From the NCBI RefSeq assembly GCF_058153355.1, contig NZ_CM177019.1: a DNA stretch of 64,000 nucleotides; one strand, written 5' to 3'. The notes under the pieces were generated by a model that saw only the letters and a program-made list of their open reading frames with translations, ran no database searches and had not been told where the DNA came from. Numbering within the stretch: position 1 is the first letter of the stretch; every line of letters starts with the position of its first letter. Positions 9,501 to 64,000 of the stretch are shown here, one piece after another. The translations under genes and the position numbers were made by a program.

Positions 9501-9680
9501 GTAGAGGGTGACCACCTGAATGGTTGGATAGTCCACTTCCGGCAGCGCCGAAACGGGCAGGGCGCGATAACCGATAATCCCGGCGAGTAAGATCGCCACC
9601 ATCAGCAGCGTGGTGGCAACAGGACGCATAATAAACAGGCGCGACGGACCGCCTGTGCTGCTCGGGGGTAACACCTGCAT
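6558..9680 (-). CDS. mdtB: RND multidrug efflux pump subunit MdtB
   Basis: 1040-aa RND-type ORF, paralogous to the adjacent MdtC ORF (shared motifs such as IMMAFFFT and [10 protein letters not shown]). Confidence 0.94.
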
Positions 9681-10927: not shown

Positions 10928-10980
10928 CGTTAAGAGTTTCTCTTCCTGAAACGTTTCGCGGAATGATACTAGTGTAGCCA

Positions 10981-10998
10981 GCCAATAAGGGAGAAAAA
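10981..10998 (-). promoter_or_regulatory. Candidate BaeR-binding box upstream of mdtA
   Basis: Minus-strand sequence TTTTTCTCCCTTATTGGC, 54-71 nt upstream of the mdtA ATG; close to the BaeR box consensus TTTTTCTCCATDATTGGC as I recall it (one mismatch). Confidence 0.4.
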
Positions 10999-11159
10999 TG
11001 GAGGAATTATGAAACACTGTCGGGAATCGTCTGAATGACGGGCACTTTTGCGAGCACGCATCCAGTAATAACACAGGAAACTATTTTATCTACGCGTTAG
11101 CGATAGACTGCATTAAGGGCAAAAGGAGGTAGGCCGACGATTTCAGCGGGACGCTGAAA

Positions 11160-11297
11160 CGGGAAAGCCCCTCCCGAGGAAGGGGCCTTAAATAAGGAAA
11201 GGGTCATGATGAAGTGGATCATCATCGTGGTGCTCTTAGTCGTTAGCTACCCAGCTTACTAAGACTACCAGGGCGGGGGAAACCCCGCTCAACCCTC
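11160..11297 (-). ncRNA. sib: Predicted Sib-type antisense RNA (antitoxin) covering ibs copy 1; ends approximate
   Basis: Minus-strand promoter-like TTGACA (plus 11328-11333), 17-nt spacer, TATTTT (plus 11305-11310); minus-strand hairpin GCCCCTTCCTCGGGAGGGGC followed by a T-rich tract near 11165-11195 as terminator; transcript fully overlaps the ibs ORF. Confidence 0.45.
11206..11262 (+). CDS. ibs: Ibs-family type I toxin, 18 aa (MMKWIIIVVLLVVSYPAY), repeat copy 1
   Basis: Short hydrophobic ORF with an MMK start and PAY C-terminus, preceded by an AAGGAAAGGG Shine-Dalgarno-like sequence; matches the Ibs toxin pattern. Too short for the ORF track. Confidence 0.75.
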   Translation: MMKWIIIVVLLVVSYPAY

Positions 11298-11487
11298 ACT
11301 CCTGAAAATATGCCTTCACGGTCAGAATGTCAATCCGCAGGCTTTGCAGTCTGCGATCCTGCCAGCAAATATTCTTTGCGAGTCGTTACGCAATAATCAC
11401 AGATGAAACTATTTTATCTAAGCGTTAGCGATAGACTGCATTCAGGGCAAAAGGAGGTAGGCCGACGATTTCAGCGGGACGCTGAAA

Positions 11488-11625
11488 CGGGAAAGCCCCT
11501 CCCGAGGAAGGGGCCTTAAATAAGGAAAGGGTCATGATGAAGATACTCATCATCGTGGTGCTCTTAGTCATTAGCTTACCGGCTTACTAAGACTACCAGG
11601 GCGGGGGAAACCCCGCTCTACCCTC
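11488..11625 (-). ncRNA. sib: Predicted Sib-type antisense RNA covering ibs copy 2; ends approximate
   Basis: Same architecture as copy 1, shifted 328 bp; -10 element is TACTTT. Confidence 0.42.
11534..11590 (+). CDS. ibs: Ibs-family type I toxin, 18 aa (MMKILIIVVLLVISLPAY), repeat copy 2
   Basis: Same features as copy 1, exactly 328 bp downstream. Confidence 0.75.
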   Translation: MMKILIIVVLLVISLPAY

Positions 11626-11815
11626 ACTCCTGAAAGTATGCCTTCACAATCAGATTGTCAATCCGCAGGCTTTGTAGTCTGCGATCCTGCCAGCAAATAT
11701 TCTTTGCGAGACGTTACGCAATAATCACATGTGAAACTATTTTATCTGCAAGTTAGCGATAGACTGCTTGCATGGCGAAAGGAGGTAGGCCGCCGATTTC
11801 AGCGGGACGCTGAAA

Positions 11816-11953
11816 CGGGAAAGCCCCTCCCGAGGAAGGGGCCTTAAATAAGGAAAGGGTCATGATGAAGCTACTCATCATCGTGGTGCTCTTAGTTATT
11901 AGCTGGCCAGCTTACTAAGACTACCAGGGCGGGGGAAACCCCGCTCTACCCTC
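11816..11953 (-). ncRNA. sib: Predicted Sib-type antisense RNA covering ibs copy 3; ends approximate
   Basis: Same architecture; TTGACA retained, -10 degenerate (TAACTT), so expression is less certain. Confidence 0.38.
11862..11918 (+). CDS. ibs: Ibs-family type I toxin, 18 aa (MMKLLIIVVLLVISWPAY), repeat copy 3
   Basis: Same features as copy 1, 656 bp downstream. Confidence 0.75.
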   Translation: MMKLLIIVVLLVISWPAY

Positions 11954-12135
11954 ACTCCTGAAGTTATGTTACTCCACCCTTATTGTCAATCTGTAAGTCC
12001 ACGTTCTTGCGGGGCGAATAGCAAAACCCTCTGCGCTTATGGGCCGAATTCTGAAAGTTGCTTTGCCTGCTCTTATTTCATTATTGCAGTCGGTATGATA
12101 CCGGACCTCAATAATTCTCTAAGAAAGGATTTCTT

Positions 12136-12795
12136 ATGAGCGAACAAATCACGTTTGCCACCAGCGATTTTGCCAGTAACCCGGAACCACGTTGCCCCTG
12201 CATTTTGCTGTTGGATGTTTCTGGTTCGATGAGTGGTAGACCTATTAATGAACTTAACGCCGGATTGGTTACCTTTCGCGATGAACTGCTTGCCGATTCG
12301 CTGGCCTTAAAAAGAGTGGAACTCGGTATTGTGACGTTCGGCCCGGTGCATGTGGAACAACCATTTACCAGCGCCGCTAATTTTTTCCCGCCCATCCTGT
12401 TTGCCCAGGGCGATACACCAATGGGGGCCGCCATTACCAAAGCCCTGAATATGGTTGAGGAGCGCAAACGTGAGTATCGCGCCAATGGTATTTCCTATTA
12501 TCGTCCGTGGATTTTCCTGATTACCGATGGCGCACCAACCGATGAGTGGCAGGCTGCTGCCAACAAGGTGTTTCAGGGGGAAGAAGATAAGAAGTTTGCC
12601 TTCTTTTCCATCGGTGTTCAGGGGGCGGATATGAAGACGCTGGCCCAAATCAGCGTTCGTCAGCCTTTGCCACTGCAGGGATTACAATTCCGTGAACTGT
12701 TTAGCTGGTTATCCAGTTCGCTGCGTTCGGTTTCCCGCTCCACGCCGGGAACGGAAGTTGTACTGGAAGCGCCAAAAGGCTGGACGTCAGTGTGA
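12136..12795 (+). CDS. yegL: von Willebrand factor A (vWA) domain protein, TerY-like
   Basis: 219-aa ORF; MIDAS motif DVSGSMSG near the N-terminus ([11 protein letters not shown]) and later ITDGAPTD, typical of vWA / TerY proteins. Confidence 0.85.
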
Positions 12796-47305: not shown

Positions 47306-48586
47306 ATGAAATTACTTATTCTGGGCAACCACACTTGCGGCAATCGTGGCGACAGCGCCATCCTGCGCGGCTTACTTGATGCCATCAACATTCTCAATCC
47401 ACACGCCGAAGTGGATGTGATGAGCCGCTATCCGGTCAGTTCTTCCTGGCTGCTCAACCGCCCGGTAATGGGCGATCCGCTGTTCCTGCAAATGAAACAA
47501 CACAACAGCGCAGCGGGCGTTGTCGGGCGCGTTAAAAAAGTCCTCCGTCGCCGCTACCAGCATCAGGTACTGCTCTCGCGCGTCACCGACACTGGCAAGT
47601 TGCGTAATATCGCCATCGCCCAGGGATTCACTGACTTCGTGCGCCTGCTGTCAGGTTACGACGCCATTATTCAGGTCGGCGGATCGTTTTTTGTCGATCT
47701 CTACGGCGTGCCACAGTTTGAACATGCACTTTGCACGTTTATGGCGAAAAAGCCGCTGTTTATGATTGGTCACAGCGTTGGCCCGTTCCAGGATGAGCAA
47801 TTTAACCAACTGGCGAACTATGTCTTTGGTCGCTGTGACGCGCTGATCCTGCGCGAATCGGTCAGCCTTGATCTGATGAAACGCAGCAATATCACCACTG
47901 CAAAAGTTGAACATGGCGTCGATACCGCGTGGCTGGTCGATCACCACACAGAAGACTTCACCGCCAGCTATGCCGTTCAACACTGGCTGGACGTTGCCGC
48001 ACAACAGAAAACGGTAGCCATTACCCTGCGCGAACTGGCACCGTTCGACAAACGTCTCGGCACCACTCAGCAAGCGTATGAAAAAGCCTTTGCCGGGGTG
48101 GTCAATCGCATTCTCGACGAAGGGTATCAGGTGATTGCGCTCTCCACCTGTACGGGCATCGACAGCTATAACAAAGACGACCGCATGGTGGCGCTCAATC
48201 TGCGCCAGCACATCAGCGATCCTGCCCGTTATCACGTGGTGATGGATGAACTCAACGATCTGGAAATGGGCAAAATTCTCGGTGCCTGTGAACTCACCGT
48301 CGGTACGCGCCTGCACTCCGCCATTATCTCAATGAACTTTGCCACCCCGGCGATTGCCATCAACTATGAACATAAATCCGCCGGGATCATGCAGCAGCTG
48401 GGGCTGCCAGAGATGGCAATTGATATCCGTCATTTATTAGACGGCAGCCTGCAAGCGATGGTTGCGGATACCTTAGGCCAACTTCCGGCGCTGAACGCAC
48501 GACTTAATGAAGCTGTCAGTCGTGAGCGTCATACAGGAATGCAGATGGTGCAATCTGTGCTTGAACGCATCGGGGAGGTGAAATGA
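47306..48586 (+). CDS. wcaK: Colanic acid pyruvyl transferase WcaK
   Basis: 426-aa ORF MKLLILGNHTCGNRGDSAILRGLLDAI..., polysaccharide pyruvyl transferase family. Confidence 0.9.
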   Translation: MKLLILGNHTCGNRGDSAILRGLLDAINILNPHAEVDVMSRYPVSSSWLLNRPVMGDPLFLQMKQHNSAAGVVGRVKKVLRRRYQHQVLLSRVTDTGKLRNIAIAQGFTDFVRLLSGYDAIIQVGGSFFVDLYGVPQFEHALCTFMAKKPLFMIGHSVGPFQDEQFNQLANYVFGRCDALILRESVSLDLMKRSNITTAKVEHGVDTAWLVDHHTEDFTASYAVQHWLDVAAQQKTVAITLRELAPFDKRLGTTQQAYEKAFAGVVNRILDEGYQVIALSTCTGIDSYNKDDRMVALNLRQHISDPARYHVVMDELNDLEMGKILGACELTVGTRLHSAIISMNFATPAIAINYEHKSAGIMQQLGLPEMAIDIRHLLDGSLQAMVADTLGQLPALNARLNEAVSRERHTGMQMVQSVLERIGEVK

Positions 48587-53746: not shown

Positions 53747-53785
53747 TAGTGTACTGGTAGCTGTGGAGCCAGGGGCGGTAGCGTG
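53747..53785 (+). promoter_or_regulatory. JUMPstart element with ops motif (GGCGGTAGCGTG at 53774-53785) heading the O-antigen cluster
   Basis: TAGTGTACTGGTAGCTGTGGAGCCAGGGGCGGTAGCGTG, ~60 bp upstream of wzx; near-identical core to the copy upstream of wza. Confidence 0.78.
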
Positions 53786-53842: not shown

Positions 53843-55357
53843 ATGTCACGTAACAAAATAATCATAAAGAATACTATGTTTTTGGCAACAAGAACCTTAG
53901 TTTCTTTAAGTGTTTCATTTTACACAACAAGAATAGTTATACAACAGTTGGGGGCGGCAGACTATGGCTTATTTAATATCATTTATGGAGTTGTAACATT
54001 TTTTACATTCGTAGTCACCGCGATGAATGATTCTGTACAGCGTTATATTGCAATAGGTGTTGGTTCACAAAAAATATCGGTTATTAGAGATGCTGTAAAA
54101 AATAGTATGTTTATATTTGTTATATCTGCTTTCATATTGGCAGTATGTCTTCTTTTGGCAAGGGGGGTGATCATACATAATATTTTAAATATACCTAAAG
54201 ATTCTATTGAAAATGCAAGTGTGTTATATTTGGTTGCAGTATTTTCAATAACCATACTTATAATTCAGACGCCACTTAATGCGATGGTGTTAGCATACGA
54301 GAAAATGTCATTTTACGCATACATGATGATATTTGAAATGGTAGCTAAAATGAGTATGGCTTTGTTACTAACTTTACTGGAAAAAGATAAGGTCATTGTA
54401 TATTCAATACTTTTAGGTTCTATTTCTTTTTTTAACTTGTTGGTTTATTTATGCTACTGCTTGATATGTTTTAAAAAATCAATGTTTGGTGGGAGAATAA
54501 AATTTAGAGTGCTGAAAGAAATTTCAACTTTTTCATTTTGGAATATATTTGGTAATTTCTCTTACATGTGCAGAGTTCAGGGAGTGAACATTGTAATTAA
54601 TATGTTTTACGCTATAGCCGTGAATGCAGCATATGCGATTTCGATTACTGTTTTAAATGCAATTAATACACTTACGCAATCATTAATTACAGCATTAAGG
54701 CCTCAAATATTTAAATCATATGGCGAATGTGATTTAAAAAGATATAATCATCTAGTTCTCTTTGGTTCAAAATATACATTTTCAATATTGTTTCTGTTAA
54801 GTAGCCCTGTAATTCTATGTGCGGATGAGTTGTTAAAGATATGGCTTGATATTGTACCAGATTATACAGTTGAATTTGTGAGGTTGGTCATTGTTGTGGC
54901 TTTTATTGATAGTTTTTCATATAGCATGATTGCTGGTATTCAGGCTACGGGTAGGATTAAAACATATCAACTAGTTGTTAGTTTAATTGTCCTAATTAAT
55001 TTGCCGTTAACCTTTATTTTGTTTAAGGCAGGAAATAATGTTTTAAGTATGTTTTATCCATTTATTGTTACTGCCATTATCAATCAAGGTTTAAGGTTGT
55101 ATTTTATCTATATCAATGCAGGTTTTGATTATAAGAAGTATTTCACTGTTGTGATCTATCCTTGCTTGTTAGCTGTATGCTTATCGTTAGTGACAGATAT
55201 TTCAATTAAAAAAATGCTTCCATTTAACAGTGTTATTGATGTTTTAATTGTGTGTATTTTTATTTTTTCATTCAATACAATAATTTTTTATTGGGTTGTA
55301 GTTTCTAAAAAGGAAAAAAAATGGTTATTAGAAACCCTGAAAAGAAAAGTGAAATAA
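53843..55357 (+). CDS. wzx: O-antigen flippase Wzx (polysaccharide biosynthesis / MOP family)
   Basis: 504-aa AT-rich ORF, almost entirely hydrophobic with ~12 predicted TM helices; first gene after galF and JUMPstart. Confidence 0.7.
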   Translation: MSRNKIIIKNTMFLATRTLVSLSVSFYTTRIVIQQLGAADYGLFNIIYGVVTFFTFVVTAMNDSVQRYIAIGVGSQKISVIRDAVKNSMFIFVISAFILAVCLLLARGVIIHNILNIPKDSIENASVLYLVAVFSITILIIQTPLNAMVLAYEKMSFYAYMMIFEMVAKMSMALLLTLLEKDKVIVYSILLGSISFFNLLVYLCYCLICFKKSMFGGRIKFRVLKEISTFSFWNIFGNFSYMCRVQGVNIVINMFYAIAVNAAYAISITVLNAINTLTQSLITALRPQIFKSYGECDLKRYNHLVLFGSKYTFSILFLLSSPVILCADELLKIWLDIVPDYTVEFVRLVIVVAFIDSFSYSMIAGIQATGRIKTYQLVVSLIVLINLPLTFILFKAGNNVLSMFYPFIVTAIINQGLRLYFIYINAGFDYKKYFTVVIYPCLLAVCLSLVTDISIKKMLPFNSVIDVLIVCIFIFSFNTIIFYWVVVSKKEKKWLLETLKRKVK

Positions 55358-56703
55358 CAATAAAAGATGTTATAGACAATGAACTCTGTACTGGTTGTGG
55401 AGTTTGTATTTCGGAAGATAGTAGCAAAACCTCCTTTATGAAATGGAATTCTGAAGGTTTTTATGAGCCATGTTTCTCTCCTGTATCAACATTATTCAAT
55501 ATGCAGCGTGTTTGTCCCTTTAACTTAAGTAGGGATACATTAGTGAATGAGGATGAACTTGCGCATGAGTTTTTTGATGGTAAGGGATATTTAGATTCTG
55601 AGGTTGGGTTTTATAAAAAAATATATGTGGGTTATTCTAAACATTTTAGAGAGACTTCATCCTCCGGTGGTATAGCTACATATGTATTTGAACAACTTCT
55701 TAGACGTAAGTATGTTGATGCTCTATTTATAGTTAGGGAGCTTGGTGGTTCATATGGATATCAAGTCTTCGATAATCCAGAACATATTAAGGATATGTCT
55801 AAAACAAGATATTATCCTGTAACGCTAGAAAAGTTATTTGATAATATTTATAAGCTTAATGGTAGAGTGGCCGTTTCAGGAGTGGCATGTTTTATTAAAG
55901 CCATTAGGCTCAAACAACATTACCATCCAGAACTGAAAGAGAAAATACCATTCCTTGTTGGTATAATTTGTGGAGGACTCAAAAGTCGATATTACACTGA
56001 TTATTTATCACAGTCTGCTGGTTGTGTCAGTGAGTACCAAAATGCTGAGTATCGAGTGAAAAAGAAAGATAGTCATGCTCTTGACTATCGTTTCACATGT
56101 GTTGAGAAATCAAATAATATAATTCATTCTGTTGATATGCAAAGAATGGGGGATATGTGGGGTTCAGGGCTATTTAAGGCAAACGCATGTGACTATTGTG
56201 ATGATGTTACAACCGAACTCGCAGACATATCATTGGGTGATGCCTGGATTTCGCCATACAATATGGATGGAGCTGGTAATAATGTAGTTGTATGTCGCTC
56301 CACCACAGCTCATGAAATTATTTTATCTGGGATTGAGAAAAAAGACTTAGAATTAACGGAACTCGAATTAGAGCAGTTGAAATTGTCACAACAAGGAAGT
56401 TTTAACCACAGGCATAAAGGATTATTATATAGAATAAAAAATGCAGAGAAAAATAATCGCTTAGTGCCTGTTAAGAGGAAAAGATTCTTACGCTCTATAT
56501 CTTTTTTATTAAAGTTAATTCAAAAACAACGATCAGTTACAAGGAGAAAAAGCATAGAGATATGGATGGAAACTCAAAATTCAGCAACTTTCGATAAGAA
56601 AATGAAGGGATATTTATTCACGTTGCGTTGGTTAACAGTGGTCAATAGGAAATTAAGTCGGATGTTCAAGATTGTTTCTCTAAATAGAATGGGTAAAAAA
56701 TGA
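55321..56703 (+). CDS. Fe-S protein resembling coenzyme F420 hydrogenase/dehydrogenase beta subunit (FrhB-like); probable partner of the adjacent pyruvyl transferase
   Basis: 460-aa ORF with ferredoxin-like CTGCGVC motif near the N-terminus and further Cys residues (CDYCDD); overlaps the wzx end by 37 bp, so the true start may lie downstream. Confidence 0.5.
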   Translation: MVIRNPEKKSEITIKDVIDNELCTGCGVCISEDSSKTSFMKWNSEGFYEPCFSPVSTLFNMQRVCPFNLSRDTLVNEDELAHEFFDGKGYLDSEVGFYKKIYVGYSKHFRETSSSGGIATYVFEQLLRRKYVDALFIVRELGGSYGYQVFDNPEHIKDMSKTRYYPVTLEKLFDNIYKLNGRVAVSGVACFIKAIRLKQHYHPELKEKIPFLVGIICGGLKSRYYTDYLSQSAGCVSEYQNAEYRVKKKDSHALDYRFTCVEKSNNIIHSVDMQRMGDMWGSGLFKANACDYCDDVTTELADISLGDAWISPYNMDGAGNNVVVCRSTTAHEIILSGIEKKDLELTELELEQLKLSQQGSFNHRHKGLLYRIKNAEKNNRLVPVKRKRFLRSISFLLKLIQKQRSVTRRKSIEIWMETQNSATFDKKMKGYLFTLRWLTVVNRKLSRMFKIVSLNRMGKK

Positions 56704-57836
56704 AAGTTGCAATATTAACTCAACCATTACATACGAATTATGGTGGCACATTACAAGCCTATGCATTACAAAAAGTCTTGATTAATTTGGGACATGAACC
56801 AGAGACTATTAATTATAGGTCGAAAATTAAGAGGCCACTATTTATCCGTGTTGTGTTGTCAAAAATTAAAAGGATAGTATTATGCCGAAAAATCACATTT
56901 GATTTTACAACACAAGATAGAATTAATATTAGGAAGCATCATCAATCTTTCATTGATACAAGATTAAACTATTCAGAGGAGATTAACGGTACTGAGGGGT
57001 TGAGAGATTATATTTTAAAAAATAATTACGGTGCTGTAATAATAGGTAGTGATCAGACATGGAGACCAATATATTCGCCTAGAATAGATTCATTTTTTCT
57101 CGATTTTTTAAGTGATGTAAACGATATAAAAAAAATGGCATATGCAGCATCTTTTGGTACTGATAAATGGGAGTTCACGGAGTCACAAACTAATTTATTT
57201 AAATTGTTACTTTCAAAATTTGACTATGTTTCAGTTAGAGAGTCCTCAGGAGTCAAATTATGTAGTGAAAAATTTGGTTTGAAAGCAGAGTTGGTTTTAG
57301 ATCCGACATTGCTATTGACATTCGAAGATTATACTCATTTATTAGACAATGACTATATTAATCTTCATAAGGGAAAGGTGTTTAGTTATGTACTTGATGA
57401 GAATTACGACAAAAAAAACTTTATAGACACAGTAGCAAGTACTCTCCGCACAACGTCATTTTATACTTACCCTAAAAAAATCACTAAAGATGAATATGTG
57501 ATTAGAAATTATTCCGAGTATGAATATCCGCCAATAGAATATTGGATTTCTTCGTTTAAGGCCGCTGAATTTATTGTAACAGATTCATTTCATGGAACAG
57601 TATTTTCTATTATTTTTAACAAACCCTTCATCGCCATTGCAAATGAAGAGAGAGGAAAGGCTAGATTTACGTCACTATTGGAAATGTTTGGTCTTGAAAG
57701 ACGACTTGTGAGTAATTTAGATGATGTTGATTTAAAGCTTGTAAATGAAAAAATTAACTATGGCCCCATAAATGAAAAAATTGCTTATTTTAGAGAAGAG
57801 TGCCTTAAAAAGTTGCAGTTAATGCTAATAAAATAA
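56700..57836 (+). CDS. Polysaccharide pyruvyl transferase (WcaK/CsaB family)
   Basis: 378-aa ORF; N-terminus MKVAILTQPLHTNYGGTLQAYAL parallels the WcaK N-terminus MKLLILGNHTCGNRGDSAIL in this same window; 4-bp overlap with the upstream gene. Confidence 0.55.
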   Translation: MKVAILTQPLHTNYGGTLQAYALQKVLINLGHEPETINYRSKIKRPLFIRVVLSKIKRIVLCRKITFDFTTQDRINIRKHHQSFIDTRLNYSEEINGTEGLRDYILKNNYGAVIIGSDQTWRPIYSPRIDSFFLDFLSDVNDIKKMAYAASFGTDKWEFTESQTNLFKLLLSKFDYVSVRESSGVKLCSEKFGLKAELVLDPTLLLTFEDYTHLLDNDYINLHKGKVFSYVLDENYDKKNFIDTVASTLRTTSFYTYPKKITKDEYVIRNYSEYEYPPIEYWISSFKAAEFIVTDSFHGTVFSIIFNKPFIAIANEERGKARFTSLLEMFGLERRLVSNLDDVDLKLVNEKINYGPINEKIAYFREECLKKLQLMLIK

Positions 57837-57882
57837 TCAGATTATGTATGTCTCTCTACAATTAAAATATGAATGTTGATCG

Positions 57883-58887
57883 ATGAAGAATTGTAAAGTA
57901 TCTGTAATTATTCCGGTCTATAATGCGGAAAAATATATACAACGTTGTATTTTAAGCTTATTAAAGCAGACATTAGATGATGTTGAAATTATCATCATTG
58001 ATGATGGTTCTACTGATAATTCACTTTCTATAATAAAAGAAACTGTTGCATTGCATACTGCTAGTAGAGCTCGCCAAAAGAGAATCAATATAATCTCTCG
58101 AGAAAACAAAGGAGTTGCCTATACACGAAGTCAGGGATTGAGACTTTCGCAGGGGGAATTTATCATTCATTTTGATAGTGATGATTGGGCAAAATCCAAT
58201 ATGCTGGAGGAAATGTATAAGACAATTGTTTCCAATAATGCAGACATGGTTATATGCGATTATTTTTTAGTGAAGAATAATAAAGAAATACTTATAAAAC
58301 AGAGAGTGGAGTATGAGCCAAAGAAATGTATTAGATATCTACTGACTGGTGAGCTAGAAGGATTTACATGGAACAAACTAATTAGAAAAAAATATATCGA
58401 TAAAAATAAAATTGATTTTGTTAATAAAATTACTTATATGGAGGATTTTTTGTTCATATTAAGTGTGTTACTACACAATCCTAAAATTATTTTTCAGGAT
58501 TGTGCATATTATTATTATCAAAAAAGCAATCCTAAATCTCTAACTAGCCATGCTAGTGTGGATAGGCTTTCTGAAATGATTAAAGCCGTAAGTGAAATAG
58601 AAAAGAAGATAAATAAATATAATTTACAAAAGTATCTGAATAACGAGTTTCAATTGTTTAAGTTAAAACAAAAAATTTGGTTTATATCTATAAGTAAGTT
58701 AAATGTTAATGATAATGTATGGAATCTCTTTCCTGAAACAAATCCATTTATATCAAAGGTAAATGTGCTTTTTTATTATAAAATAGTGCTTTTTCTTGAT
58801 AGTATTAAACTGCGTTTTTTTTCAAATAAGATCATTTATCTCATTGGATTGGTGCAGGCTTTATTACAAGAAAGGAAAGAGAAGTGA
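57883..58887 (+). CDS. Glycosyltransferase family 2
   Basis: 334-aa ORF; VSVIIPVYNAEKYI, IIIIDDGSTDNS, later DSDD (DXD). Confidence 0.72.
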   Translation: MKNCKVSVIIPVYNAEKYIQRCILSLLKQTLDDVEIIIIDDGSTDNSLSIIKETVALHTASRARQKRINIISRENKGVAYTRSQGLRLSQGEFIIHFDSDDWAKSNMLEEMYKTIVSNNADMVICDYFLVKNNKEILIKQRVEYEPKKCIRYLLTGELEGFTWNKLIRKKYIDKNKIDFVNKITYMEDFLFILSVLLHNPKIIFQDCAYYYYQKSNPKSLTSHASVDRLSEMIKAVSEIEKKINKYNLQKYLNNEFQLFKLKQKIWFISISKLNVNDNVWNLFPETNPFISKVNVLFYYKIVLFLDSIKLRFFSNKIIYLIGLVQALLQERKEK

Positions 58888-59672
58888 TACCAAAAATAAT
58901 TCATTACTGCTGGTTCGGTCGCTCTCCATTGTCGGAATTAACAAAGCAGTGCATTGCAAGCTGGGAGAAATATTGTCCTGAATATAAAATCATAAGATGG
59001 GATGAAAATAATGTCGATTTGAATTCTTGTTCTTTTGTTAGACAAGCTTATAAAGAAAAAAAATGGGCGTTCGTTTCTGATTATGTAAGGCTTAAAGTGG
59101 TTAATGAATATGGCGGTATCTATCTTGATACAGATGTTGAATTAATAAAGCCATTAGATGATTTGTTAATATATCCTGCATATATAGGCTTTGAAATTAA
59201 CAAGGAATGGTATGTAAATTCTGGTTTGGGGTTCGGTTCTGTTAATAATAATCCGGTTTTAGAATCATTAATTATGGAGTATGAAAATATTAATTTTGTA
59301 AATGAGGATGGGACTCTAAATATAACGCCGTGCCCCATAAGAGAAACAAAAGCATTAACAAAAATAGGTTTAATTCCTGATGGTCAATGTCAATCTTTTG
59401 ATAATATAGTGATTTTTTCTGCAGATTATTTTTGTCCTGTATCTATAACAGGTGAGAGAAATTTTTCTGATAAAACATATTCAATACATCATTACGATGC
59501 TAGTTGGTTTTCTGAGCAAAAGAGAAAAGGCCTGCAACGTAAAAAGAGATTTATAAAACTATTCGGCAACCTAATAGGCACATATATTAATAAACCTTTT
59601 ATTTTTGTAGATGAATGTCGCGAGTTCGGATTAGTTAAAGCAATCAAGAATATGCGTTCCAATTTTCCTTAA
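58884..59672 (+). CDS. Glycosyltransferase with DXD sugar-binding region (Gly_transf_sug / Och1-like family)
   Basis: 262-aa ORF; N-terminus IPKIIHYCWFGRSPL, then YLDTDVELIKPLDD; characteristic of this small retaining glycosyltransferase family. Confidence 0.65.
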   Translation: MIPKIIHYCWFGRSPLSELTKQCIASWEKYCPEYKIIRWDENNVDLNSCSFVRQAYKEKKWAFVSDYVRLKVVNEYGGIYLDTDVELIKPLDDLLIYPAYIGFEINKEWYVNSGLGFGSVNNNPVLESLIMEYENINFVNEDGTLNITPCPIRETKALTKIGLIPDGQCQSFDNIVIFSADYFCPVSITGERNFSDKTYSIHHYDASWFSEQKRKGLQRKKRFIKLFGNLIGTYINKPFIFVDECREFGLVKAIKNMRSNFP

Positions 59673-59745
59673 TTTTTAGTGTTAAGGAATAAGTTTCGTT
59701 AAAATACTTTATTCATTTAATTAATAAAGGTTTAATGGTGATTAG

Positions 59746-60849
59746 ATGTACTTTCTTTTGTTCTTCTCAATATTTTATTTTGTATACGTAATCTTAATAG
59801 GAACATTATGTCATAACTATAAAGCCCTTTTGATTTTTTCACTAATCCCTCTGACAATAGTGTCAGGTATAAGATATAATGTCGGCTTTGATTTTATGTC
59901 ATATGTTGATTACTTCAATCAACTCAAATATTCAAATGATATATATCTAGATTCTACCTTTAAGTATATAAGCTACTTTACCTATTATATAGGAGGTAAC
60001 GAACAGATTTTGTTTCTGATATATGCGGTTTTTTATTCGGTTGCACTTTATTTTTTAATAAAACTGGTATTGGAAAATTATATAACGGAAATAAATAATT
60101 TTTATACTATTGGACTTGTGTTATCATTTTATTCGTTTTATTTTTTATTATCATTTAATCAAATTAGGGCTGTATTATCAGCTCTAATACTATGTTATGG
60201 GCTATTAAAAAATAAAATAGATTTTTCTTTTATAATAACAATTACATTAAGTATTCTTTTTCACTCTGCAGCAATGTTCATTTTACCTCTTTATTTTGTC
60301 CTAAGAAAAATAAATGTAACAGTTCTGTTGGTGATATTCCCTTTTTTGGTTGTTGCTTCATTCTTTAATATTTTTTCAGATATTGTGAGATTCATTCTGA
60401 CATTGCTAAATAGTCGTTTTTTAACATATTTTAACTCTGAATATTTTGTTCCAAGGACGGGAATGGAAAAAATGTATAGTATGATCTCAATGATTATTGT
60501 TTTGGGAATGGTTGTTTGTTTGTCTAAATTATTACCTAAAAAGTTTGATTTAATGATAAAGTTTGTTATTCTTTTTGTTCTACTTAGAGCGATGTCAATT
60601 GATATATTGATTTTTGCTAGGTTTAGTGATTTTCTTAAACCAATGGCTATAATTCTTATATTTACCGCTGTTTATTTTTCTTCGAATAAAGTGCGACCTA
60701 GAATTATCCTTCCTTTTTATTTAATTATGACATTGTTTCTCTGTATTTTTAATATAATAATCGGATCGAATATAACTAAGGGGAACTATTATACTTATGG
60801 TTATAACATTTGCTTTTTTGGCAATAAATGTATAGATAAATTTTATTAG
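59746..60849 (+). CDS. wzy: Candidate O-antigen polymerase Wzy (EpsG-like polytopic membrane protein)
   Basis: 367-aa, extremely AT-rich, ~10 predicted TM segments with no soluble domain; placement among the glycosyltransferases is typical of wzy. Assignment is by architecture only. Confidence 0.5.
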   Translation: MYFLLFFSIFYFVYVILIGTLCHNYKALLIFSLIPLTIVSGIRYNVGFDFMSYVDYFNQLKYSNDIYLDSTFKYISYFTYYIGGNEQILFLIYAVFYSVALYFLIKLVLENYITEINNFYTIGLVLSFYSFYFLLSFNQIRAVLSALILCYGLLKNKIDFSFIITITLSILFHSAAMFILPLYFVLRKINVTVLLVIFPFLVVASFFNIFSDIVRFILTLLNSRFLTYFNSEYFVPRTGMEKMYSMISMIIVLGMVVCLSKLLPKKFDLMIKFVILFVLLRAMSIDILIFARFSDFLKPMAIILIFTAVYFSSNKVRPRIILPFYLIMTLFLCIFNIIIGSNITKGNYYTYGYNICFFGNKCIDKFY

Positions 60850-60859
60850 TAATTGTCAT

Positions 60860-61927
60860 TTGATACTTCTGGTATTTATGGAAAAATATATGAATAACTT
60901 TTCTTGTAAAGAACCCCCTTCATTTATTGAAAATAAAATTATATTATCAATTATTCTTCCTGTATATAACGTATCAGAGTATTTAATTGAGTGCCTAAAC
61001 AGTTTGCTGTTAGACGTTCATGAACGTTATCTTAATAGATGTGAAGTAATTGTGGTTGATGATGGTTCAACTGATAATTCATTTGAATTAATGAGAGAGT
61101 ATTCTTTGAAATATCCTGAATCTATTAAGATTTATTCGAAATTCAATGGTGGTCTCTCAGATGCAAGAAACTATGGATTATTAAAATCTTCAGGTAAATA
61201 TATTTCTTTTGTTGATTCAGATGATGTTGTTAATAGAGGTTTTATAAAGGAAATCATCAATTTCATTGATGCCTATGATTTTGATATATTGTCATTTGAC
61301 TTCATGAAGTTTTTTAATAATAATGATGCTCTTATTCTTTCACAAATAGATGAATTCTCCAAAATGGCAGAAAGAGTAGATTCGGAGTTCTACAAGTCCA
61401 AGCCTGTTTTTGCTTGGAATAAAGTTTATCGACGTTCTCTTTTCGACAATGAAGTATTTCCTAAGGGGTGGTATTATGAAGATGTTGCATTAATTCCGTT
61501 ATTATTAGATAGAGCAAAAGTTTTATACCATATTAATAGCGTTTGTTATTTTTATAGACAGAGACAAGGAGCAATCACTTTTTTTTATGACAATAAATAT
61601 CTTGATATTTTAAAAGGAGTGTCTTTTTTATATGACAGGTCACAATCTTCATTCATTAAAACGATAATTATAAATCAGTTTTTTACTTTAACCTTACTAT
61701 CTTTAAGATTGCCGACTGATAATTATTTCATGAATATGAGGGGGATTATTGATACCTATTGTGAAAAATTTGACTTGGATTCCTTTGAGCCTAAACTAAT
61801 ATTAAAACACATTCCTTTTTTATTGCTTAAAAAATTGAAGTCGCTGTGTGTTTATCCACTGTATTTATTTAAACCTGCAGTTTTTTTACATAAACAAATT
61901 AAACATTTTAGAGGAAAACTAAAGTGA
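60860..61927 (+). CDS. Glycosyltransferase family 2 (start codon uncertain)
   Basis: 355-aa ORF; ILSIILPVYNVSEYL, VIVVDDGSTDNS, FVDSDD. The true start may be the internal ATG at MNNFSC. Confidence 0.7.
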   Translation: MILLVFMEKYMNNFSCKEPPSFIENKIILSIILPVYNVSEYLIECLNSLLLDVHERYLNRCEVIVVDDGSTDNSFELMREYSLKYPESIKIYSKFNGGLSDARNYGLLKSSGKYISFVDSDDVVNRGFIKEIINFIDAYDFDILSFDFMKFFNNNDALILSQIDEFSKMAERVDSEFYKSKPVFAWNKVYRRSLFDNEVFPKGWYYEDVALIPLLLDRAKVLYHINSVCYFYRQRQGAITFFYDNKYLDILKGVSFLYDRSQSSFIKTIIINQFFTLTLLSLRLPTDNYFMNMRGIIDTYCEKFDLDSFEPKLILKHIPFLLLKKLKSLCVYPLYLFKPAVFLHKQIKHFRGKLK

Positions 61928-63033
61928 AATATGATTATATAATTATAGGTAGCGGTCTTTTTGGGAGTGTGTTTGCACATGAATTAGGGAAAATGAAAAA
62001 AAAGGTCAAGGTTATTGAGCGTCGTGATCATGTTGGTGGTAATGTATATTGTGAGAATATTGAAGGAATTAATGTTCATAAATATGGCGCACATATATTC
62101 CATACTAACGATAAAGAAATATGGGATTATGTAAATCAATTTGTAGAGTTTAATAGATATACAAATTCACCATTAGCTTTTTCAAAAGGTAAAATTTATA
62201 ATTTACCTTTTAACATGAATACCTTTAATCAACTCTGGGGGGCTATTACTCCTCAACATGCGAAAGAAATTATTAAAAAGCAAAGCGGTGAAATAAGTGG
62301 AAATAAACCAAGGAATCTTGAAGAGCAAGCTATTTCTTTGGTGGGACGAGATATTTATAATTGTTTGATTAAGGAGTACACTGAGAAACAATGGGGACGA
62401 CCTTGCACTGAATTGCCATCATTTATTATAAAACGACTCCCTGTTAGGTTTACATACGATAATAACTATTTTAATGACCAGTATCAAGGAATACCAGTCG
62501 GTGGTTACAATAAATTAATCGATGCATTATTAAATGGTATTGAAGTTCAAACATGCACTGACTATTTTGAAGAGAAGAAATATTGGGATTCTATTGCAAA
62601 GAAAATTATTTATACAGGGCCTATTGATAAGTTTTATTGCTATAAATTTGGAGCTTTGGATTATCGATCATTAAAATTTGAGCATGAATTACTGAATGTC
62701 GATAATTTTCAAGGGAATGCTGTTGTAAATTATATAGACAAAAAATTCCCATTCACTCGTATAATAGAACATAAATTTTTTGAATTTGGTGAACAGCATA
62801 ATACTCTCATTACTCGAGAGTACCCAAAAGAATTCGAAGAAGGCGATGAGTATTACTATCCTGTCAATGATGAAAAAAATATGCAAATCTATAAAATGTA
62901 TTATAATCTTTCTAAACAGGAAAGTAATGTGATTTTTGGTGGACGTCTTGCGGAATATAAATATTATGACATGCATCAAGTTATCAAATCAGCTTTAAAT
63001 GCATTCCGAAAAGAGGTACGTTTAGGTGAATAA
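61924..63033 (+). CDS. glf: UDP-galactopyranose mutase
   Basis: 369-aa ORF; FAD-binding YDYIIIGSGLFGSVFA, then KYGAHIFHTNDK...GGRLAEYKYYDMHQVI; very similar to the E. coli K-12 Glf sequence as I remember it. Confidence 0.85.
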   Translation: MKYDYIIIGSGLFGSVFAHELGKMKKKVKVIERRDHVGGNVYCENIEGINVHKYGAHIFHTNDKEIWDYVNQFVEFNRYTNSPLAFSKGKIYNLPFNMNTFNQLWGAITPQHAKEIIKKQSGEISGNKPRNLEEQAISLVGRDIYNCLIKEYTEKQWGRPCTELPSFIIKRLPVRFTYDNNYFNDQYQGIPVGGYNKLIDALLNGIEVQTCTDYFEEKKYWDSIAKKIIYTGPIDKFYCYKFGALDYRSLKFEHELLNVDNFQGNAVVNYIDKKFPFTRIIEHKFFEFGEQHNTLITREYPKEFEEGDEYYYPVNDEKNMQIYKMYYNLSKQESNVIFGGRLAEYKYYDMHQVIKSALNAFRKEVRLGE

Positions 63034-63940
63034 AGAAGTAATCGCAGTTATTGTAACCTATAATAGAAAAGCATTATTGCTGAAAGTTATAGATGCTGTT
63101 ATTAACCAAAGTTATCCACTAAAAAAAATATTGATAATAGATAATAATAGTACTGATGGTACGGAGATGTTTATTTCAAATAGGCTCTCTGACGTGGTGA
63201 AGTATAAAAATACGGGGGATAATTTAGGGGGGGCTGGCGGGTTTTATAGAGGATTCATAGAGGCGGAAAAATATGGCTATGATTATCTTTGGTTAATGGA
63301 CGATGATTTTATGCCTACAGTGAATTGTCTTGAAATATTAATATCAAATAGCCCTGATGGTATTGTCCAACCTGTTAGATATAACTTGGATGAAACTTGT
63401 GCAGAGCTTTCTCCATTAACTTATGATTTATCTAACCCATTTAAGTTAAACCCTAAAGGTACACCATTAAAAAATTACTTAAATACAATTGGTAATAAAT
63501 CTGCGAAGGTAGATATTGAAGCTATTCCATTTGAAGGTCCATTGATTTCACGAAAGGTTGTTGAAAAAATAGGCTATCCAGAGCCTAAGTTTTTTATTTT
63601 TTGTGATGACATTGAATACGCTATTAAAGCTAAAAGAAAGGGGATTCCCATCCAGTGCAATCTTAAAGCCAAGGCATACCGCCTTTTGGTCAACAATCAA
63701 GGTAATGATCTTCTTTCCTGGAAAGGATATTTTATGCTTCGAAATCTTTTCTACCTGCATAAAACGTATGGGACCAATTTCCTTGTTAGACAAAAACCTA
63801 TCGTATTGGGATTAGGATATGCATTGTCGTGTGTATTGAAATGCAATTTTTCTCAACTTCCCGTTATATGGCGTGCTTTTTGGGATTCATCTACGTTAAG
63901 AAATACCGAAAAATTCAGGCCCGAAATGAGAAGTAAATAA
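63026..63940 (+). CDS. Glycosyltransferase family 2, plausibly a galactofuranosyltransferase
   Basis: 304-aa ORF; VIAVIVTYNRKALL, IIDNNSTDGT, LMDDDF; sits directly after glf. Acceptor and donor specificity are inferred from context only. Confidence 0.62.
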   Translation: MNKEVIAVIVTYNRKALLLKVIDAVINQSYPLKKILIIDNNSTDGTEMFISNRLSDVVKYKNTGDNLGGAGGFYRGFIEAEKYGYDYLWLMDDDFMPTVNCLEILISNSPDGIVQPVRYNLDETCAELSPLTYDLSNPFKLNPKGTPLKNYLNTIGNKSAKVDIEAIPFEGPLISRKVVEKIGYPEPKFFIFCDDIEYAIKAKRKGIPIQCNLKAKAYRLLVNNQGNDLLSWKGYFMLRNLFYLHKTYGTNFLVRQKPIVLGLGYALSCVLKCNFSQLPVIWRAFWDSSTLRNTEKFRPEMRSK

Positions 63941-64000
63941 TTTATTATTATGTTTTTATTAATTAATGTCGATTTTTACTAAAATTCTTAACACGATATT

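What the first reader, a model, noticed from the sequence alone, without database searches (positions are those of the whole stretch)
55321..57836. FrhB-like Fe-S protein paired with a pyruvyl transferase inside the O-antigen cluster
A 460-aa protein with ferredoxin-type cysteine motifs (CTGCGVC), resembling F420 hydrogenase/dehydrogenase beta subunits, is translationally coupled (4-bp overlap) to a polysaccharide pyruvyl transferase. The role of such FrhB-like partners is not established biochemically; a redox-active Fe-S protein has no obvious job in ketal formation from PEP. The same window carries a second, unpaired pyruvyl transferase (wcaK) in the colanic acid cluster, giving an internal comparison: one works without an Fe-S partner, the other is coupled to one.
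Basis: partly seen in the sequence, partly recalled or inferred. Interest (0 to 1): 0.55.

Follow-up and report, generated by a model that had tools for sequence, protein, structure and literature searches.

The report
Two-gene lactyl-ether module of O124 antigen
The iron-sulfur flavoprotein gene and the neighbouring "pyruvyl transferase" gene are the already-described pair that puts a lactic-acid ether (not a pyruvate ketal) on a glucose of the E. coli O124 / Shigella dysenteriae 3 O-antigen, so the redox protein's likely job is to reduce the transferred enolpyruvyl group to lactyl.

Summary
ORF 55321-56703 is an FrhB-family protein with eight conserved cysteines. It overlaps by 4 bp a PS_pyruv_trans gene (56700-57836), and wcaK (47306-48586) is a second, unpartnered pyruvyl transferase.

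The "no obvious job" puzzle rests on a wrong premise. The window is the E. coli O124 cluster, whose O unit carries no pyruvate ketal. It carries glucolactilic acid, glucose bearing a lactyl ether. Making that ether from PEP needs enolpyruvyl transfer plus a two-electron reduction, the MurA/MurB logic.

Supporting evidence:
- O164-type genomes differ by one T deleted inside the transferase gene, and O164 has plain glucose.
- All other cluster genes are accounted for.
- 69 of 80 homologous loci have the two genes adjacent, and fusions exist in both orders.
- O69 (lactyl-GlcNAc) has the same pair; O150 (lactyl-GlcNAc) has a related transferase with a nitroreductase-fold flavoenzyme instead.
- Only Klebsiella K22, K37 and K66 pair a transferase with a reductase, and all three are reported unpyruvylated.

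A 2006 paper title (Senchenkova et al., not readable here) already reports "two new genes" for glucolactilic acid. The role is therefore known genetically. I found no biochemistry for the reductase step in the searchable literature.

The parts
55321..56703 (+). FrhB-family Fe-S flavoprotein (460 aa); proposed enolpyruvyl-ether reductase of glucolactilic acid synthesis
   Evidence: Pfam FrhB_FdhB_N and FrhB_FdhB_C. AF2 pLDDT 95.9. Foldseek hits only FrhB-family modules. Far below the FrhB/FpoF equivalog cut-offs. PyrT adjacent in 69 of 80 loci.
55387..55515 (+). N-terminal ferredoxin-type motif C23-x2-C26-x2-C29 ... C65-P66 (predicted first [4Fe-4S] site)
   Evidence: Conserved in 95-100% of 132 homologues. 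Aligns with the CxxCGxC of Fsr and 8rja_E. Cluster binding is inferred, not shown.
55888..56199 (+). FrhB-core cysteines C190, C217, C290-x2-C293 (predicted second [4Fe-4S] site). The conserved S115-G116-G117 lies upstream at 55663-55671.
   Evidence: Invariant in alignment A1. C190 and C290/C293 align with the PC and CxxC motifs of Fsr and 8rja_E.
56368..56700 (+). C-terminal helical extension (aa 350-460), very basic, absent from FrhB and Fsr structures
   Evidence: 29 K+R against 5 D+E. Helices H350-459 at high pLDDT. Query TM-score only 0.47-0.60 against target TM-score of about 0.7. A role in membrane or substrate docking is inferred.
56700..57836 (+). PS_pyruv_trans family protein (378 aa), most likely wfeP; proposed PEP:glucose-O4 enolpyruvyl transferase
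   Evidence: Pfam 3.1e-39. Only 22% identical to WcaK over 169 aa. 25.8 bits against a CsaB cut-off of 213. Split by a frameshift in O164-type genomes.
57093..57098 (+). T6 tract; loss of one T gives the O164-type frameshift
   Evidence: Alignment of the window with NZ_AP023197. Across 53843-57836 the only differences are two SNPs in wzx and this deletion.
53843..55357 (+). wzx (O124/O164 flippase); overlaps the FrhB-like gene by 37 bp; first gene of a recurring wzx - FrhB-like - PyrT trio
   Evidence: PGAP name. The trio is seen in Klebsiella, Acinetobacter, Serratia and Raoultella and in 29 of 80 loci.
53774..53781 (+). ops element GGCGGTAG, 62 nt upstream of wzx
   Evidence: Its role in RfaH-dependent operon expression is established knowledge and was not tested here.
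57883..63940 (+). Rest of the O124 cluster: GT2, GT32, wzy, GT2, glf, GT2. Four glycosyltransferases for the four non-polymerisation linkages.
   Evidence: with the O-unit structure from PMC7685785. This leaves only the FrhB-like and PyrT genes for the lactyl group.
47306..48586 (+). wcaK, colanic-acid ketal pyruvyl transferase (internal comparison, no reductase partner)
   Evidence: WcaK equivalog 933 bits. No FrhB-like or NTR-type ORF elsewhere in the window.

Best explanation
The two genes form the glucolactilic-acid (lactyl ether) module of the O124 / S. dysenteriae type 3 O-antigen.

**Step 1 (inferred).** The PS_pyruv_trans protein adds PEP to O-4 of the terminal beta-glucose of the side chain and releases phosphate. 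The product is an enolpyruvyl ether rather than a closed ketal.

**Step 2 (inferred).** The FrhB-family protein reduces the C=C of that enol ether to give the (R)-1-carboxyethyl (lactyl) ether. It probably holds a flavin and two [4Fe-4S] clusters. E. coli makes no F420, so it would draw electrons from a one-electron donor such as flavodoxin or ferredoxin.

The logic is that of MurA/MurB in muramic acid synthesis, carried out by two unrelated protein families.

The modification most likely occurs on the undecaprenyl-diphosphate-linked O unit at the cytoplasmic face, before the co-inherited Wzx flips it.

**Shown here or in the literature:** the glycan carries a lactyl ether, and loss of the transferase gene coincides with loss of the lactyl group.

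**Inferred:** the enolpyruvyl intermediate, the cofactors, the electron donor and the substrate level.
For: 1. **Identity of the cluster.** The window is 100% identical to O124/O164 clusters. The O124 side chain is D-GlcLA-(b1-6)-D-Glc, and O164 is the same with Glc, attributed to a wfeP frameshift (PMC7685785).
2. **Natural mutant.** In O164-type genomes the only coding lesion across wzx, the FrhB-like gene and PyrT is a one-T deletion that splits PyrT.
3. **Gene accounting.** Four GTs match four linkages. glf, gne, wzx and wzy are explained. Only these two genes remain for the one remaining feature.
4. **Prior genetics.** The title of Senchenkova et al. 2006 reports two new genes for glucolactilic acid.
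5. **Co-occurrence.** 69 of 80 loci have the genes adjacent and 77 of 80 within 6 kb. Single-polypeptide fusions exist in both orders.
6. **Independent serogroups.** O69 (lactyl-GlcNAc) has FrhB-like + wzx + PyrT. O150 (4-O-(S)-lactyl-GlcNAc) has nitroreductase-family + wzx + a PyrT 48% identical to the O69 one. An Enterobacter PyrT 53% identical to the O124 one is likewise paired with a nitroreductase.
7. **Klebsiella.** Among 35 capsule pyruvyltransferases, only K66 (F420-hydrogenase-like) and K22/K37 (nitroreductase) have a reductase gene. These three are among the four types with a transferase gene but no pyruvylation.
8. **Chemical precedent.** The nitroreductase-fold domain of FbiB reduces a PEP-derived enolpyruvyl methylene to lactyl (PMC6450877).
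9. **Fold.** FrhB-family fold with eight conserved cysteines. The family includes HCAR, which acts on a non-F420 substrate.
Against: - No enzymology exists in any paper I could read. The enolpyruvyl intermediate, flavin and Fe-S content, electron donor and order of steps are all inferred.
- The 2006, 2008 and 2017 papers that assign the genes are not held. I know their titles only and cannot say which genes were knocked out.
- The review writes "synthesis of UDP-D-GlcpLA", implying action at the nucleotide-sugar level. That disagrees with my lipid-linked proposal.
- The equation wfeP = PyrT is inferred from the position of the frameshift.
- Serotypes of the matched genomes were not verified.
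- The 80 loci are the best-scoring of 512, not a random sample.
Confidence: 0.75

Rival explanations
1. Same two steps, but at the nucleotide-sugar level as in MurA/MurB. UDP-Glc is converted to UDP-GlcLA, which a glycosyltransferase then transfers.
For: [quoted passage not shown] MurA/MurB act on UDP-GlcNAc (PMC6801904).
Against: - O164 builds a complete O unit with plain terminal Glc when PyrT is broken. The glycosyltransferase therefore accepts UDP-Glc, which fits modification after transfer.
- GlcLA is the terminal residue.
- The module travels with its own wzx in 29 of 80 loci.
- Characterised PS_pyruv_trans enzymes act on lipid-linked or oligosaccharide acceptors (from memory of Hager et al.).
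- The reductase has a strongly basic C-terminal extension.
Confidence: 0.2
2. The transferase makes an ordinary 4,6-pyruvate ketal on the terminal glucose. The Fe-S flavoprotein then reductively opens the ketal to the 4-O-lactyl ether.
For: The PF04230 family is known for ketal formation. O-6 of the terminal glucose is free in O124.
Against: - I know of no biochemical precedent for reductive ketal opening, whereas reduction of an enolpyruvyl C=C has two (MurB; FbiB).
- Lactyl ethers also occur on rhamnose (O58), where the geometry for a ketal differs.
- The partner-type PyrTs are a distant subgroup from WcaK and CsaB.
Confidence: 0.06
3. Reduction comes first. The FrhB-like protein reduces PEP (or an activated enolpyruvyl donor) to 2-phospholactate, and the transferase then transfers a lactyl group.
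For: Adjacency and fusions do not fix the order of steps.
Against: - Displacing phosphate at the secondary carbon of phospholactate is chemically unfavourable compared with addition-elimination on PEP.
- In F420 biosynthesis the long-assumed 2-phospholactate route was disproved in favour of PEP followed by reduction (PMC6450877).
Confidence: 0.05
4. One reading: a ketal-forming pyruvyl transferase with an Fe-S partner whose function is unrelated, regulatory or unknown.
For: Public annotation says only "coenzyme F420 hydrogenase" and "polysaccharide pyruvyl transferase".
Against: - O124 has no pyruvate ketal.
- There are no other genes for the lactyl group.
- The reductase family is swapped next to related transferases in O69/O150 and in Enterobacter.
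- The Klebsiella pattern points the same way.
Confidence: 0.03

Closest known systems
Glucolactilic-acid genes of S. dysenteriae 3 / E. coli O124 / S. boydii 17 (Senchenkova et al. 2006 BBRC 349:289; Liu et al. 2008; wfeP in Liu et al. 2019)
   Same: This is the same locus. The identical proteins occur in S. dysenteriae and O124/O164 records. The O164 frameshift lies in the PyrT gene.
   Different: Nothing differs at the sequence level. I found no mechanism or enzymology in the searchable literature, and the primary papers could not be read.
MurA / MurB (UDP-GlcNAc enolpyruvyl transferase and UDP-enolpyruvyl-GlcNAc reductase)
   Same: Same proposed chemical logic: PEP-derived enolpyruvyl ether on a sugar hydroxyl, then flavin-dependent reduction to an (R)-lactyl ether.
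   Different: Unrelated folds: PF04230 instead of the MurA fold, and an FrhB-family Fe-S flavoprotein instead of MurB. No MurA or MurB domains were detected. The position is O-4 of Glc rather than O-3 of GlcNAc. The substrate is probably lipid-linked. No NADPH-binding domain is evident.
FbiB C-terminal nitroreductase-fold domain (dehydro-F420-0 reductase)
   Same: It reduces a PEP-derived enolpyruvyl methylene to lactyl with reduced flavin (PMC6450877). The same fold family partners the PyrT in O150, K22/K37, Enterobacter, Providencia and Pseudoalteromonas.
   Different: The O124 partner belongs to the FrhB family, not the NTR fold. The FbiB substrate is a phosphodiester cofactor precursor, not a glycan ether. 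The O150 protein does not hit FbiB directly in the PDB sequence search.
HCAR (7-hydroxymethyl chlorophyll a reductase, 5dqr) and BciB (ferredoxin-dependent 8-vinyl reductase)
   Same: FrhB-family proteins that act on non-F420 substrates. HCAR is a significant fold match (1.8e-14). BciB reduces a vinyl C=C using ferredoxin (from memory).
   Different: 16-19% identity and high rmsd (about 13 A over the full alignment). The substrates are tetrapyrroles. There is no PyrT partner.
FrhB / FpoF / Fsr N-terminal half (F420-reactive modules of methanogens)
   Same: Same Pfam domains, same fold, same cysteine pattern, and an N-terminal ferredoxin extension as in FpoF and Fsr.
   Different: Scores 26-48 bits against equivalog cut-offs of 269-475. 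No hydrogenase or dehydrogenase partner subunits are in the locus. The host makes no F420 (established knowledge). There is an extra basic C-terminal helical region.
WcaK / CsaB ketal pyruvyl transferases
   Same: Same Pfam family PF04230. They act in Wzx/Wzy pathways on terminal sugars.
   Different: 22% identity over part of the length. Far below the equivalog cut-offs. WcaK scores 63 bits against 364 on a profile of reductase-partnered PyrTs. The end product here is an ether, not a ketal.

Membership tests
FrhB/FdhB superfamily (PF04422 + PF04432) | Both Pfam domains present in order | tested here: met
   FrhB_FdhB_N 1.3e-8 and FrhB_FdhB_C 7.7e-24.
FrhB/FdhB superfamily (PF04422 + PF04432) | FrhB fold | tested here: met
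   AF2 pLDDT 95.9. The top 21 Foldseek PDB hits are all FrhB-family modules; target TM-score about 0.7 to FrhB.
FrhB/FdhB superfamily (PF04422 + PF04432) | Cysteine ligands for the core [4Fe-4S] cluster and a flavin-binding GG motif | tested here: met
   C190, C217, C290 and C293 are invariant and S115-G116-G117 is at least 90% conserved. They align with the Fsr and 8rja_E motifs. Actual cofactor binding was not tested.
True FrhB / FpoF orthologue (F420-reactive subunit) | Reaches the NCBIfam equivalog score | tested here: not met
   48.3 against 475 (FpoF), 46.7 against 269, 25.7 against 331.5 (frhB).
True FrhB / FpoF orthologue (F420-reactive subunit) | Encoded with hydrogenase or dehydrogenase partner subunits | tested here: not met
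   The neighbours are wzx, PyrT, glycosyltransferases, wzy and glf.
True FrhB / FpoF orthologue (F420-reactive subunit) | Host produces coenzyme F420 | not testable with these tools
   E. coli is not known to make F420 (established knowledge; heterologous production was needed in PMC6450877). The whole genome was not available to scan.
PS_pyruv_trans (PF04230) | Full-length Pfam match | tested here: met
   3.1e-39 over model positions 1-279 of 280.
Ketal-forming pyruvyl transferase (WcaK/CsaB type) | Product glycan carries a pyruvate ketal | tested here: not met
   Per PMC7685785, the O124 O unit carries GlcLA, and pyruvate is listed only for O112ac, O149 and O156.
Ketal-forming pyruvyl transferase (WcaK/CsaB type) | Reaches the WcaK or CsaB equivalog score | tested here: not met
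   25.8 bits against a cut-off of 213.1 for CsaB, and no WcaK hit.
Glucolactilic-acid gene pair of O124 / S. dysenteriae 3 | Located in the O124/O164 O-antigen cluster with identical sequence | tested here: met
   100% identity to O124/O164 clusters. The exact proteins are in S. dysenteriae records.
Glucolactilic-acid gene pair of O124 / S. dysenteriae 3 | Loss of function removes the lactyl group | tested here: met
   For the PyrT gene: a T6-to-T5 frameshift in O164-type genomes, combined with the structure difference. For the FrhB-like gene: known only from the 2006 title, not verified.
MurA/MurB system | MurA-fold transferase and MurB-type FAD-binding reductase | tested here: not met
   Pfam finds only PF04230 and PF04422/PF04432. 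The relationship is a functional analogy only.
MurA/MurB system | Enolpyruvyl ether intermediate reduced to lactyl ether | not testable with these tools
   Needs enzyme assays. It is supported indirectly by the lactyl product and the FbiB precedent.

The most novel reading that the evidence does not exclude
Lactyl ethers in bacterial glycans are made by a modular, stereodivergent two-enzyme system. One subfamily of PF04230 enzymes stops at the enolpyruvyl ether. One of two unrelated flavoreductases then sets the configuration: FrhB-like Fe-S flavoproteins give (R) and nitroreductase-fold proteins give (S).

- (R) with FrhB-like: O124; O69, reading the Knirel 2017 title respectively.
- (S) with nitroreductase fold: O150; K22/K37 from memory; FbiB gives the L-lactyl of F420.

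The reductase gene is swapped next to closely related transferases. On this reading the FrhB-like enzyme would be a ferredoxin- or flavodoxin-driven glycan reductase acting on lipid-linked substrates. Thousands of genes annotated "coenzyme F420 hydrogenase" in organisms without F420 would then predict lactylated polysaccharides.
Probability: 0.4. Interest if true: 0.6.

Novelty: already known. Interest (0 to 1): 0.38.

Why it matters
The locus and its role are already in the O-antigen literature, so this is not a discovery. Three things still make it useful.

- **Annotation.** Public annotation ("coenzyme F420 hydrogenase", "pyruvyl transferase") is misleading for a large family. There are 3432 representative clusters at 50% identity and at least 512 of 100,044 species genomes. 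A transferase-plus-reductase pair appears to predict a lactyl ether rather than a ketal, which matters for predicting glycan structure from sequence, for example in serotyping and vaccine antigens.
- **Enzymology.** I found no biochemical characterisation of the reductase step. It would be an FrhB-family enzyme working without F420 in E. coli, a tractable host.
- **Testable rule.** The apparent link between reductase family and lactyl configuration is cheap to test.

Tried and rejected
1. **Reaching O146 and O58.** I tried the O124, O69, O150, IAI1, Providencia, Pseudoalteromonas, Klebsiella, Buttiauxella and Serratia genes, including two chimeric queries, in distant DNA mode. Only O124/O164, O69, O150, IAI1-type strains and three plasmids were found. 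The (R)/(S) prediction for O146 and O58 remains untested.
2. **Ketal controls.** The pyruvate-ketal serogroups O112ac, O149 and O156 could not be located as negative controls. wcaK in the window and the Klebsiella survey serve instead.
3. **Primary papers.** Liu 2008, Knirel 2017 and Senchenkova 2006 are not held. The E. coli review has no supplements held.
4. **The "Shigella boydii" copy.** The FrhB-like protein P0280 turned out to lie in an ordinary O124-type cluster, not type 17.
5. **PDB by sequence.** This gave only weak hits. The fold search was needed.
6. **O150 nitroreductase against FbiB.** It does not hit FbiB by sequence. The link is at fold-family level only.
7. **True F420-dependent subunit: rejected.** See the equivalog scores, the neighbouring genes and the host.

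Full report
**1. The observation**

The two ORFs are as described.
- ORF 55321-56703 (+, 460 aa) matches Pfam FrhB_FdhB_N (1.3e-8) and FrhB_FdhB_C (7.7e-24). It has a weak Fer4 hit on the CTGCGVC motif.
- ORF 56700-57836 (+, 378 aa) is a full-length PS_pyruv_trans (3.1e-39).
- The two share ATGA at 56700-56703.
- wcaK lies at 47306-48586 (933 bits to the WcaK equivalog).

A profile scan of all 266 window ORFs finds one FrhB-like ORF, two pyruvyl-transferase-family ORFs and no nitroreductase-type partner.

**2. Where this is**

Window 53843-57836 is 100% identical to *E. coli* chromosomes whose flippase and polymerase NCBI names "O124/O164 family".

The cluster reads: gne, galF, wzx, FrhB-like, PyrT, GT2, GT32, wzy, GT2, glf, GT2, gnd. 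G+C falls to 0.25-0.34 across it.

The identical proteins occur in *Shigella dysenteriae* records. There they are named only "coenzyme F420 hydrogenase", "putative hydrogenase" or "polysaccharide pyruvyl transferase".

**3. What the glycan is**

The review by Liu et al. (PMC7685785) gives the O124 O unit.
- Main chain: ->3)-D-Galp-(b1->6)-D-Galf-(b1->3)-D-GalpNAc-(b1->.
- Side chain: D-GlcpLA-(b1->6)-D-Glcp, linked a1->4 to Gal.

GlcLA is glucolactilic acid, a glucose bearing a lactyl ether. From my own knowledge it is 4-O-[(R)-1-carboxyethyl]-D-glucose.

The same review lists pyruvate ketals only for O112ac, O149 and O156. It lists lactyl groups for O58, O124, O146, O69 and O150. It states that O164 is O124 with Glc in place of GlcLA, owing to a frameshift in wfeP.

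**4. A natural mutant**

Three of the five matching complete genomes are one base shorter. Across 53843-57836 they differ from the window by two SNPs in wzx and by loss of one T from the T6 run at 57093-57098. That deletion splits the PyrT gene into two CDSs, while the FrhB-like gene is intact.

This matches the published O124/O164 difference. It identifies wfeP as the PyrT gene (an inference) and the window as the intact O124 form.

**5. Gene accounting**

- The O unit needs four glycosyltransferases for its four non-polymerisation linkages, and the cluster has four.
- glf supplies Galf.
- gne supplies GalNAc.
- wzx and wzy do flipping and polymerisation.

The only unexplained genes are the FrhB-like gene and PyrT. 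The only unexplained structural feature is the lactyl ether.

**6. Prior art**

The data bibliography of PMC5643014 cites Senchenkova, Feng, Wang, Perepelov, Qin et al. [quoted passage not shown]

The reference list of the review cites Knirel et al. [quoted passage not shown] It also cites Perepelov et al. 2007 on O150 containing 4-O-[(S)-1-carboxyethyl]-GlcNAc.

None of these papers is held.

The main open-access review of glycan pyruvylation mentions neither lactyl ethers nor an F420-type partner. No paper in the library combines the relevant terms. A two-gene requirement is therefore known genetically, and I found no enzymology.

**7. The Fe-S protein**

- *Family size.* An exhaustive search finds 3432 representative clusters at E <= 1e-3 and 737 at <= 1e-30. 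The closest relatives are in Kluyvera, Citrobacter, Klebsiella, Raoultella, Serratia and Acinetobacter.
- *Conserved residues.* In 132 homologues of 27-65% identity, eight cysteines are conserved in 95-100%:
  - C23-x2-C26-x2-C29 with C65-P66, a ferredoxin-type motif;
  - C190, C217 and C290-x2-C293, the FrhB core.
  - Also conserved are S115-G116-G117 and a set of Arg, Lys and Asp residues.
- *Fold.* The AlphaFold2 model is confident (pLDDT 95.9, pTM 0.94). Its significant PDB matches are all FrhB-family modules:
  - F420-reducing CODH and Fmd components (8riu_B, 8rja_E);
  - the N-terminal half of Fsr;
  - FrhB;
  - FdhB;
  - the plant chlorophyll enzyme HCAR.
- *Not an orthologue.* It is far below every FrhB/FpoF equivalog cut-off and has no hydrogenase neighbours.
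- *Extra region.* It carries a 111-residue helical C-terminus with 29 Lys+Arg against 5 Asp+Glu.

I conclude that it is a genuine FrhB-superfamily redox module, probably flavin plus two [4Fe-4S] clusters, and not an F420 enzyme. Cofactor content is inferred.

**8. Co-occurrence**

*Closest relatives.* In Klebsiella, Acinetobacter, Serratia and Raoultella the order is wzx, FrhB-like, PyrT with overlapping stops and starts.

*Species-level scan.* A scan of one genome per species found 512 relatives. Of the best 80 loci (Bacteroidota, Proteobacteria, Firmicutes, methanogens):
- 69 have a PyrT gene adjacent on the same strand (47 downstream, 22 upstream);
- 8 have one within 6 kb;
- 3 have none, and 2 of those lie at contig ends.

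*Fusions.* Single polypeptides exist in both orders:
- at least ten PyrT-then-FrhB-like proteins, about 50% identical to the O124 pair;
- FrhB-like-then-PyrT proteins.

*Asymmetry.* The reverse does not hold. In Klebsiella only 3 of 35 capsule pyruvyltransferases have any reductase neighbour. The reductase depends on the transferase and not the other way round. That is what one expects if it acts on the transferase's product.

**9. Tests against known structures**

*E. coli.* I predicted that the other lactyl serogroups would carry such a pair.

| Serogroup | Lactyl sugar | Cluster order |
|---|---|---|
| O69 | lactyl-GlcNAc | rmlBDAC, FrhB-like, wzx(O69), PyrT |
| O150 | 4-O-(S)-lactyl-GlcNAc | rmlBDAC, nitroreductase-family protein, wzx(O150), PyrT |

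The layout is the same in both. The O150 PyrT is 48% identical to the O69 one, but the flavoenzyme family is different.

The same swap is seen elsewhere.
- A PyrT 53% identical to the O124 enzyme sits next to a nitroreductase-family gene in *Enterobacter asburiae*.
- Pseudoalteromonas and Providencia loci have rml genes, nitroreductase, a probable flippase, GT2, PyrT.

*Klebsiella* (Pan et al. 2015).
- K66 is the only type with an "F420 hydrogenase" gene, and it lies next to pyruvyltransferase wcqF.
- K22 and K37 share pyruvyl transferase wclZ plus a "nitroreductase".
- K22, K37 and K66 are three of the four types that have a transferase gene but no pyruvylated capsule.
- From memory, K22 and K37 contain 4-O-[(S)-1-carboxyethyl]-glucuronic acid.

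*Campylobacter.* A 2026 preprint notes that a 234-Da sugar proposed to be glucolactilic acid is found in Campylobacter whose pgl operons contain a pyruvyl transferase gene.

**10. Mechanism**

The best-supported reading has two steps.
- PEP-dependent enolpyruvyl transfer by the PF04230 enzyme.
- Reduction of the enol-ether C=C by the flavoenzyme.

Two precedents support the reduction step.
- MurB (established knowledge).
- The nitroreductase-fold domain of FbiB, which reduces the terminal methylene of the PEP-derived dehydro-F420-0 to the lactyl group of F420-0 with FMNH2 (PMC6450877).

HCAR, and from memory the ferredoxin-dependent vinyl reductase BciB, show that FrhB-family proteins can act on non-F420 substrates.

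Since E. coli lacks F420, electrons probably enter from flavodoxin or ferredoxin through the N-terminal cluster. They would then pass through the core cluster to the flavin (inferred).

I favour action on the lipid-linked O unit, for four reasons.
- O164 assembles a complete unit with plain terminal Glc when PyrT is broken.
- GlcLA is terminal.
- A dedicated wzx travels with the module.
- The reductase has a strongly basic tail.

The review's wording (UDP-GlcLA) points the other way, so I keep that as a rival at 0.2.

**11. A pattern seen in passing**

| Reductase family | Lactyl configuration | Cases |
|---|---|---|
| FrhB-like | (R) | O124; O69, reading the 2017 title "respectively" |
| Nitroreductase fold | (S) | O150; K22/K37 from memory; the L-lactyl of F420 made by FbiB |

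The stereocentre is created in the reduction step, so the reductase family may set the configuration.

I could not reach the O146 and O58 clusters to test this. It is a hypothesis resting on three to five cases.

**12. Verdict**

- The gene pair and its role are already in the specialist literature, so novelty is "already known".

What remains open and worth doing is the enzymology of the FrhB-family reductase, the substrate level, and the possible stereochemical rule. The misleading public annotation of a large family is also worth correcting.

Interest is 0.38. Confidence in the two-step mechanism is 0.75. Confidence that the pair makes the lactyl ether is about 0.9.

Noticed in passing
window 57093-57098: The O124-to-O164 difference is loss of one T from a T6 homopolymer tract inside the PyrT gene. 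Three of five complete genomes carry T5 and look like one lineage (similar size and coordinates). A homopolymer site raises the possibility of recurrent switching, but only one event is evident.
   Followed up: partly
window 53774-53781 (+); also 27424, 28011, 40685 (+) and 8246 (-): ops-like GGCGGTAG elements: 5 copies against 1.29 expected. One lies 62 nt upstream of the O-antigen wzx.
   Followed up: no
window 55321-55357: wzx and the FrhB-like ORF overlap by 37 bp. Homologues start about 13 codons later with 4-bp overlaps, but O124 has no start codon at that position. The first four residues are low-confidence in the model.
   Followed up: partly
window 56368-56700 (aa 350-460 of the FrhB-like protein): A long, highly basic helical C-terminal extension (29 K+R, 5 D+E), absent from solved FrhB and Fsr structures and partly conserved in the family (R371, P383, K385, R386, R404, S411). 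It could be a membrane or partner docking element.
   Followed up: partly
L095 (E. coli IAI1, NC_011741 2160628-2180765), genes at 7948-11677: Eight complete E. coli genomes carry flippase, FrhB-like, PyrT in a galF-gnd cluster whose serogroup NCBI does not name. The module predicts a lactyl-ether sugar in that O antigen.
   Followed up: no
L094 (E. coli O150:H6 FEX669) 6466-10131 and L092 (O69) 8194-12198: O69 and O150 have the same layout (rmlBDAC, reductase, wzx, PyrT) with PyrTs 48% identical, but an FrhB-like reductase in O69 and a nitroreductase-fold one in O150. This is a non-orthologous displacement that may track (R) against (S) lactyl configuration. The O150 strain's wzx is annotated as frameshifted.
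   Followed up: partly
L003 (E. coli plasmid pBDSF8-3_3) 5739-13661; also plasmids NZ_CP070932 and NZ_JBWDPM010000002: Small plasmids carry IS-scrambled fragments of capsule loci. They hold a nitroreductase fragment + PyrT + GT2 and a flippase + FrhB-like + PyrT set. The two PyrT copies are 99.7% identical.
   Followed up: no
P0121-P0129, P0136 (PyrT then FrhB-like), P0170 and P0247 (FrhB-like then PyrT); L011 403-3528: Natural fusion proteins of the two domains exist in both orders. P0125 adds a C-terminal hexapeptide-repeat acyltransferase domain, and several have 130-600 extra N-terminal residues of unknown nature.
   Followed up: partly
L056-L059, L065, L089 (methanogen genomes): Methanogens, which do make F420, also have FrhB-like genes next to PyrT genes. 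Separately, Bashiri et al. 2019 note that the archaeal dehydro-F420-0 (enolpyruvyl) reductase is unknown. Whether this family is relevant to that gap is pure speculation.
   Followed up: no
window ~54000-64000: G+C drops from about 0.45-0.55 to 0.25-0.34 with strongly positive GC skew across the O-antigen cluster, typical of horizontally acquired O-antigen genes.
   Followed up: no
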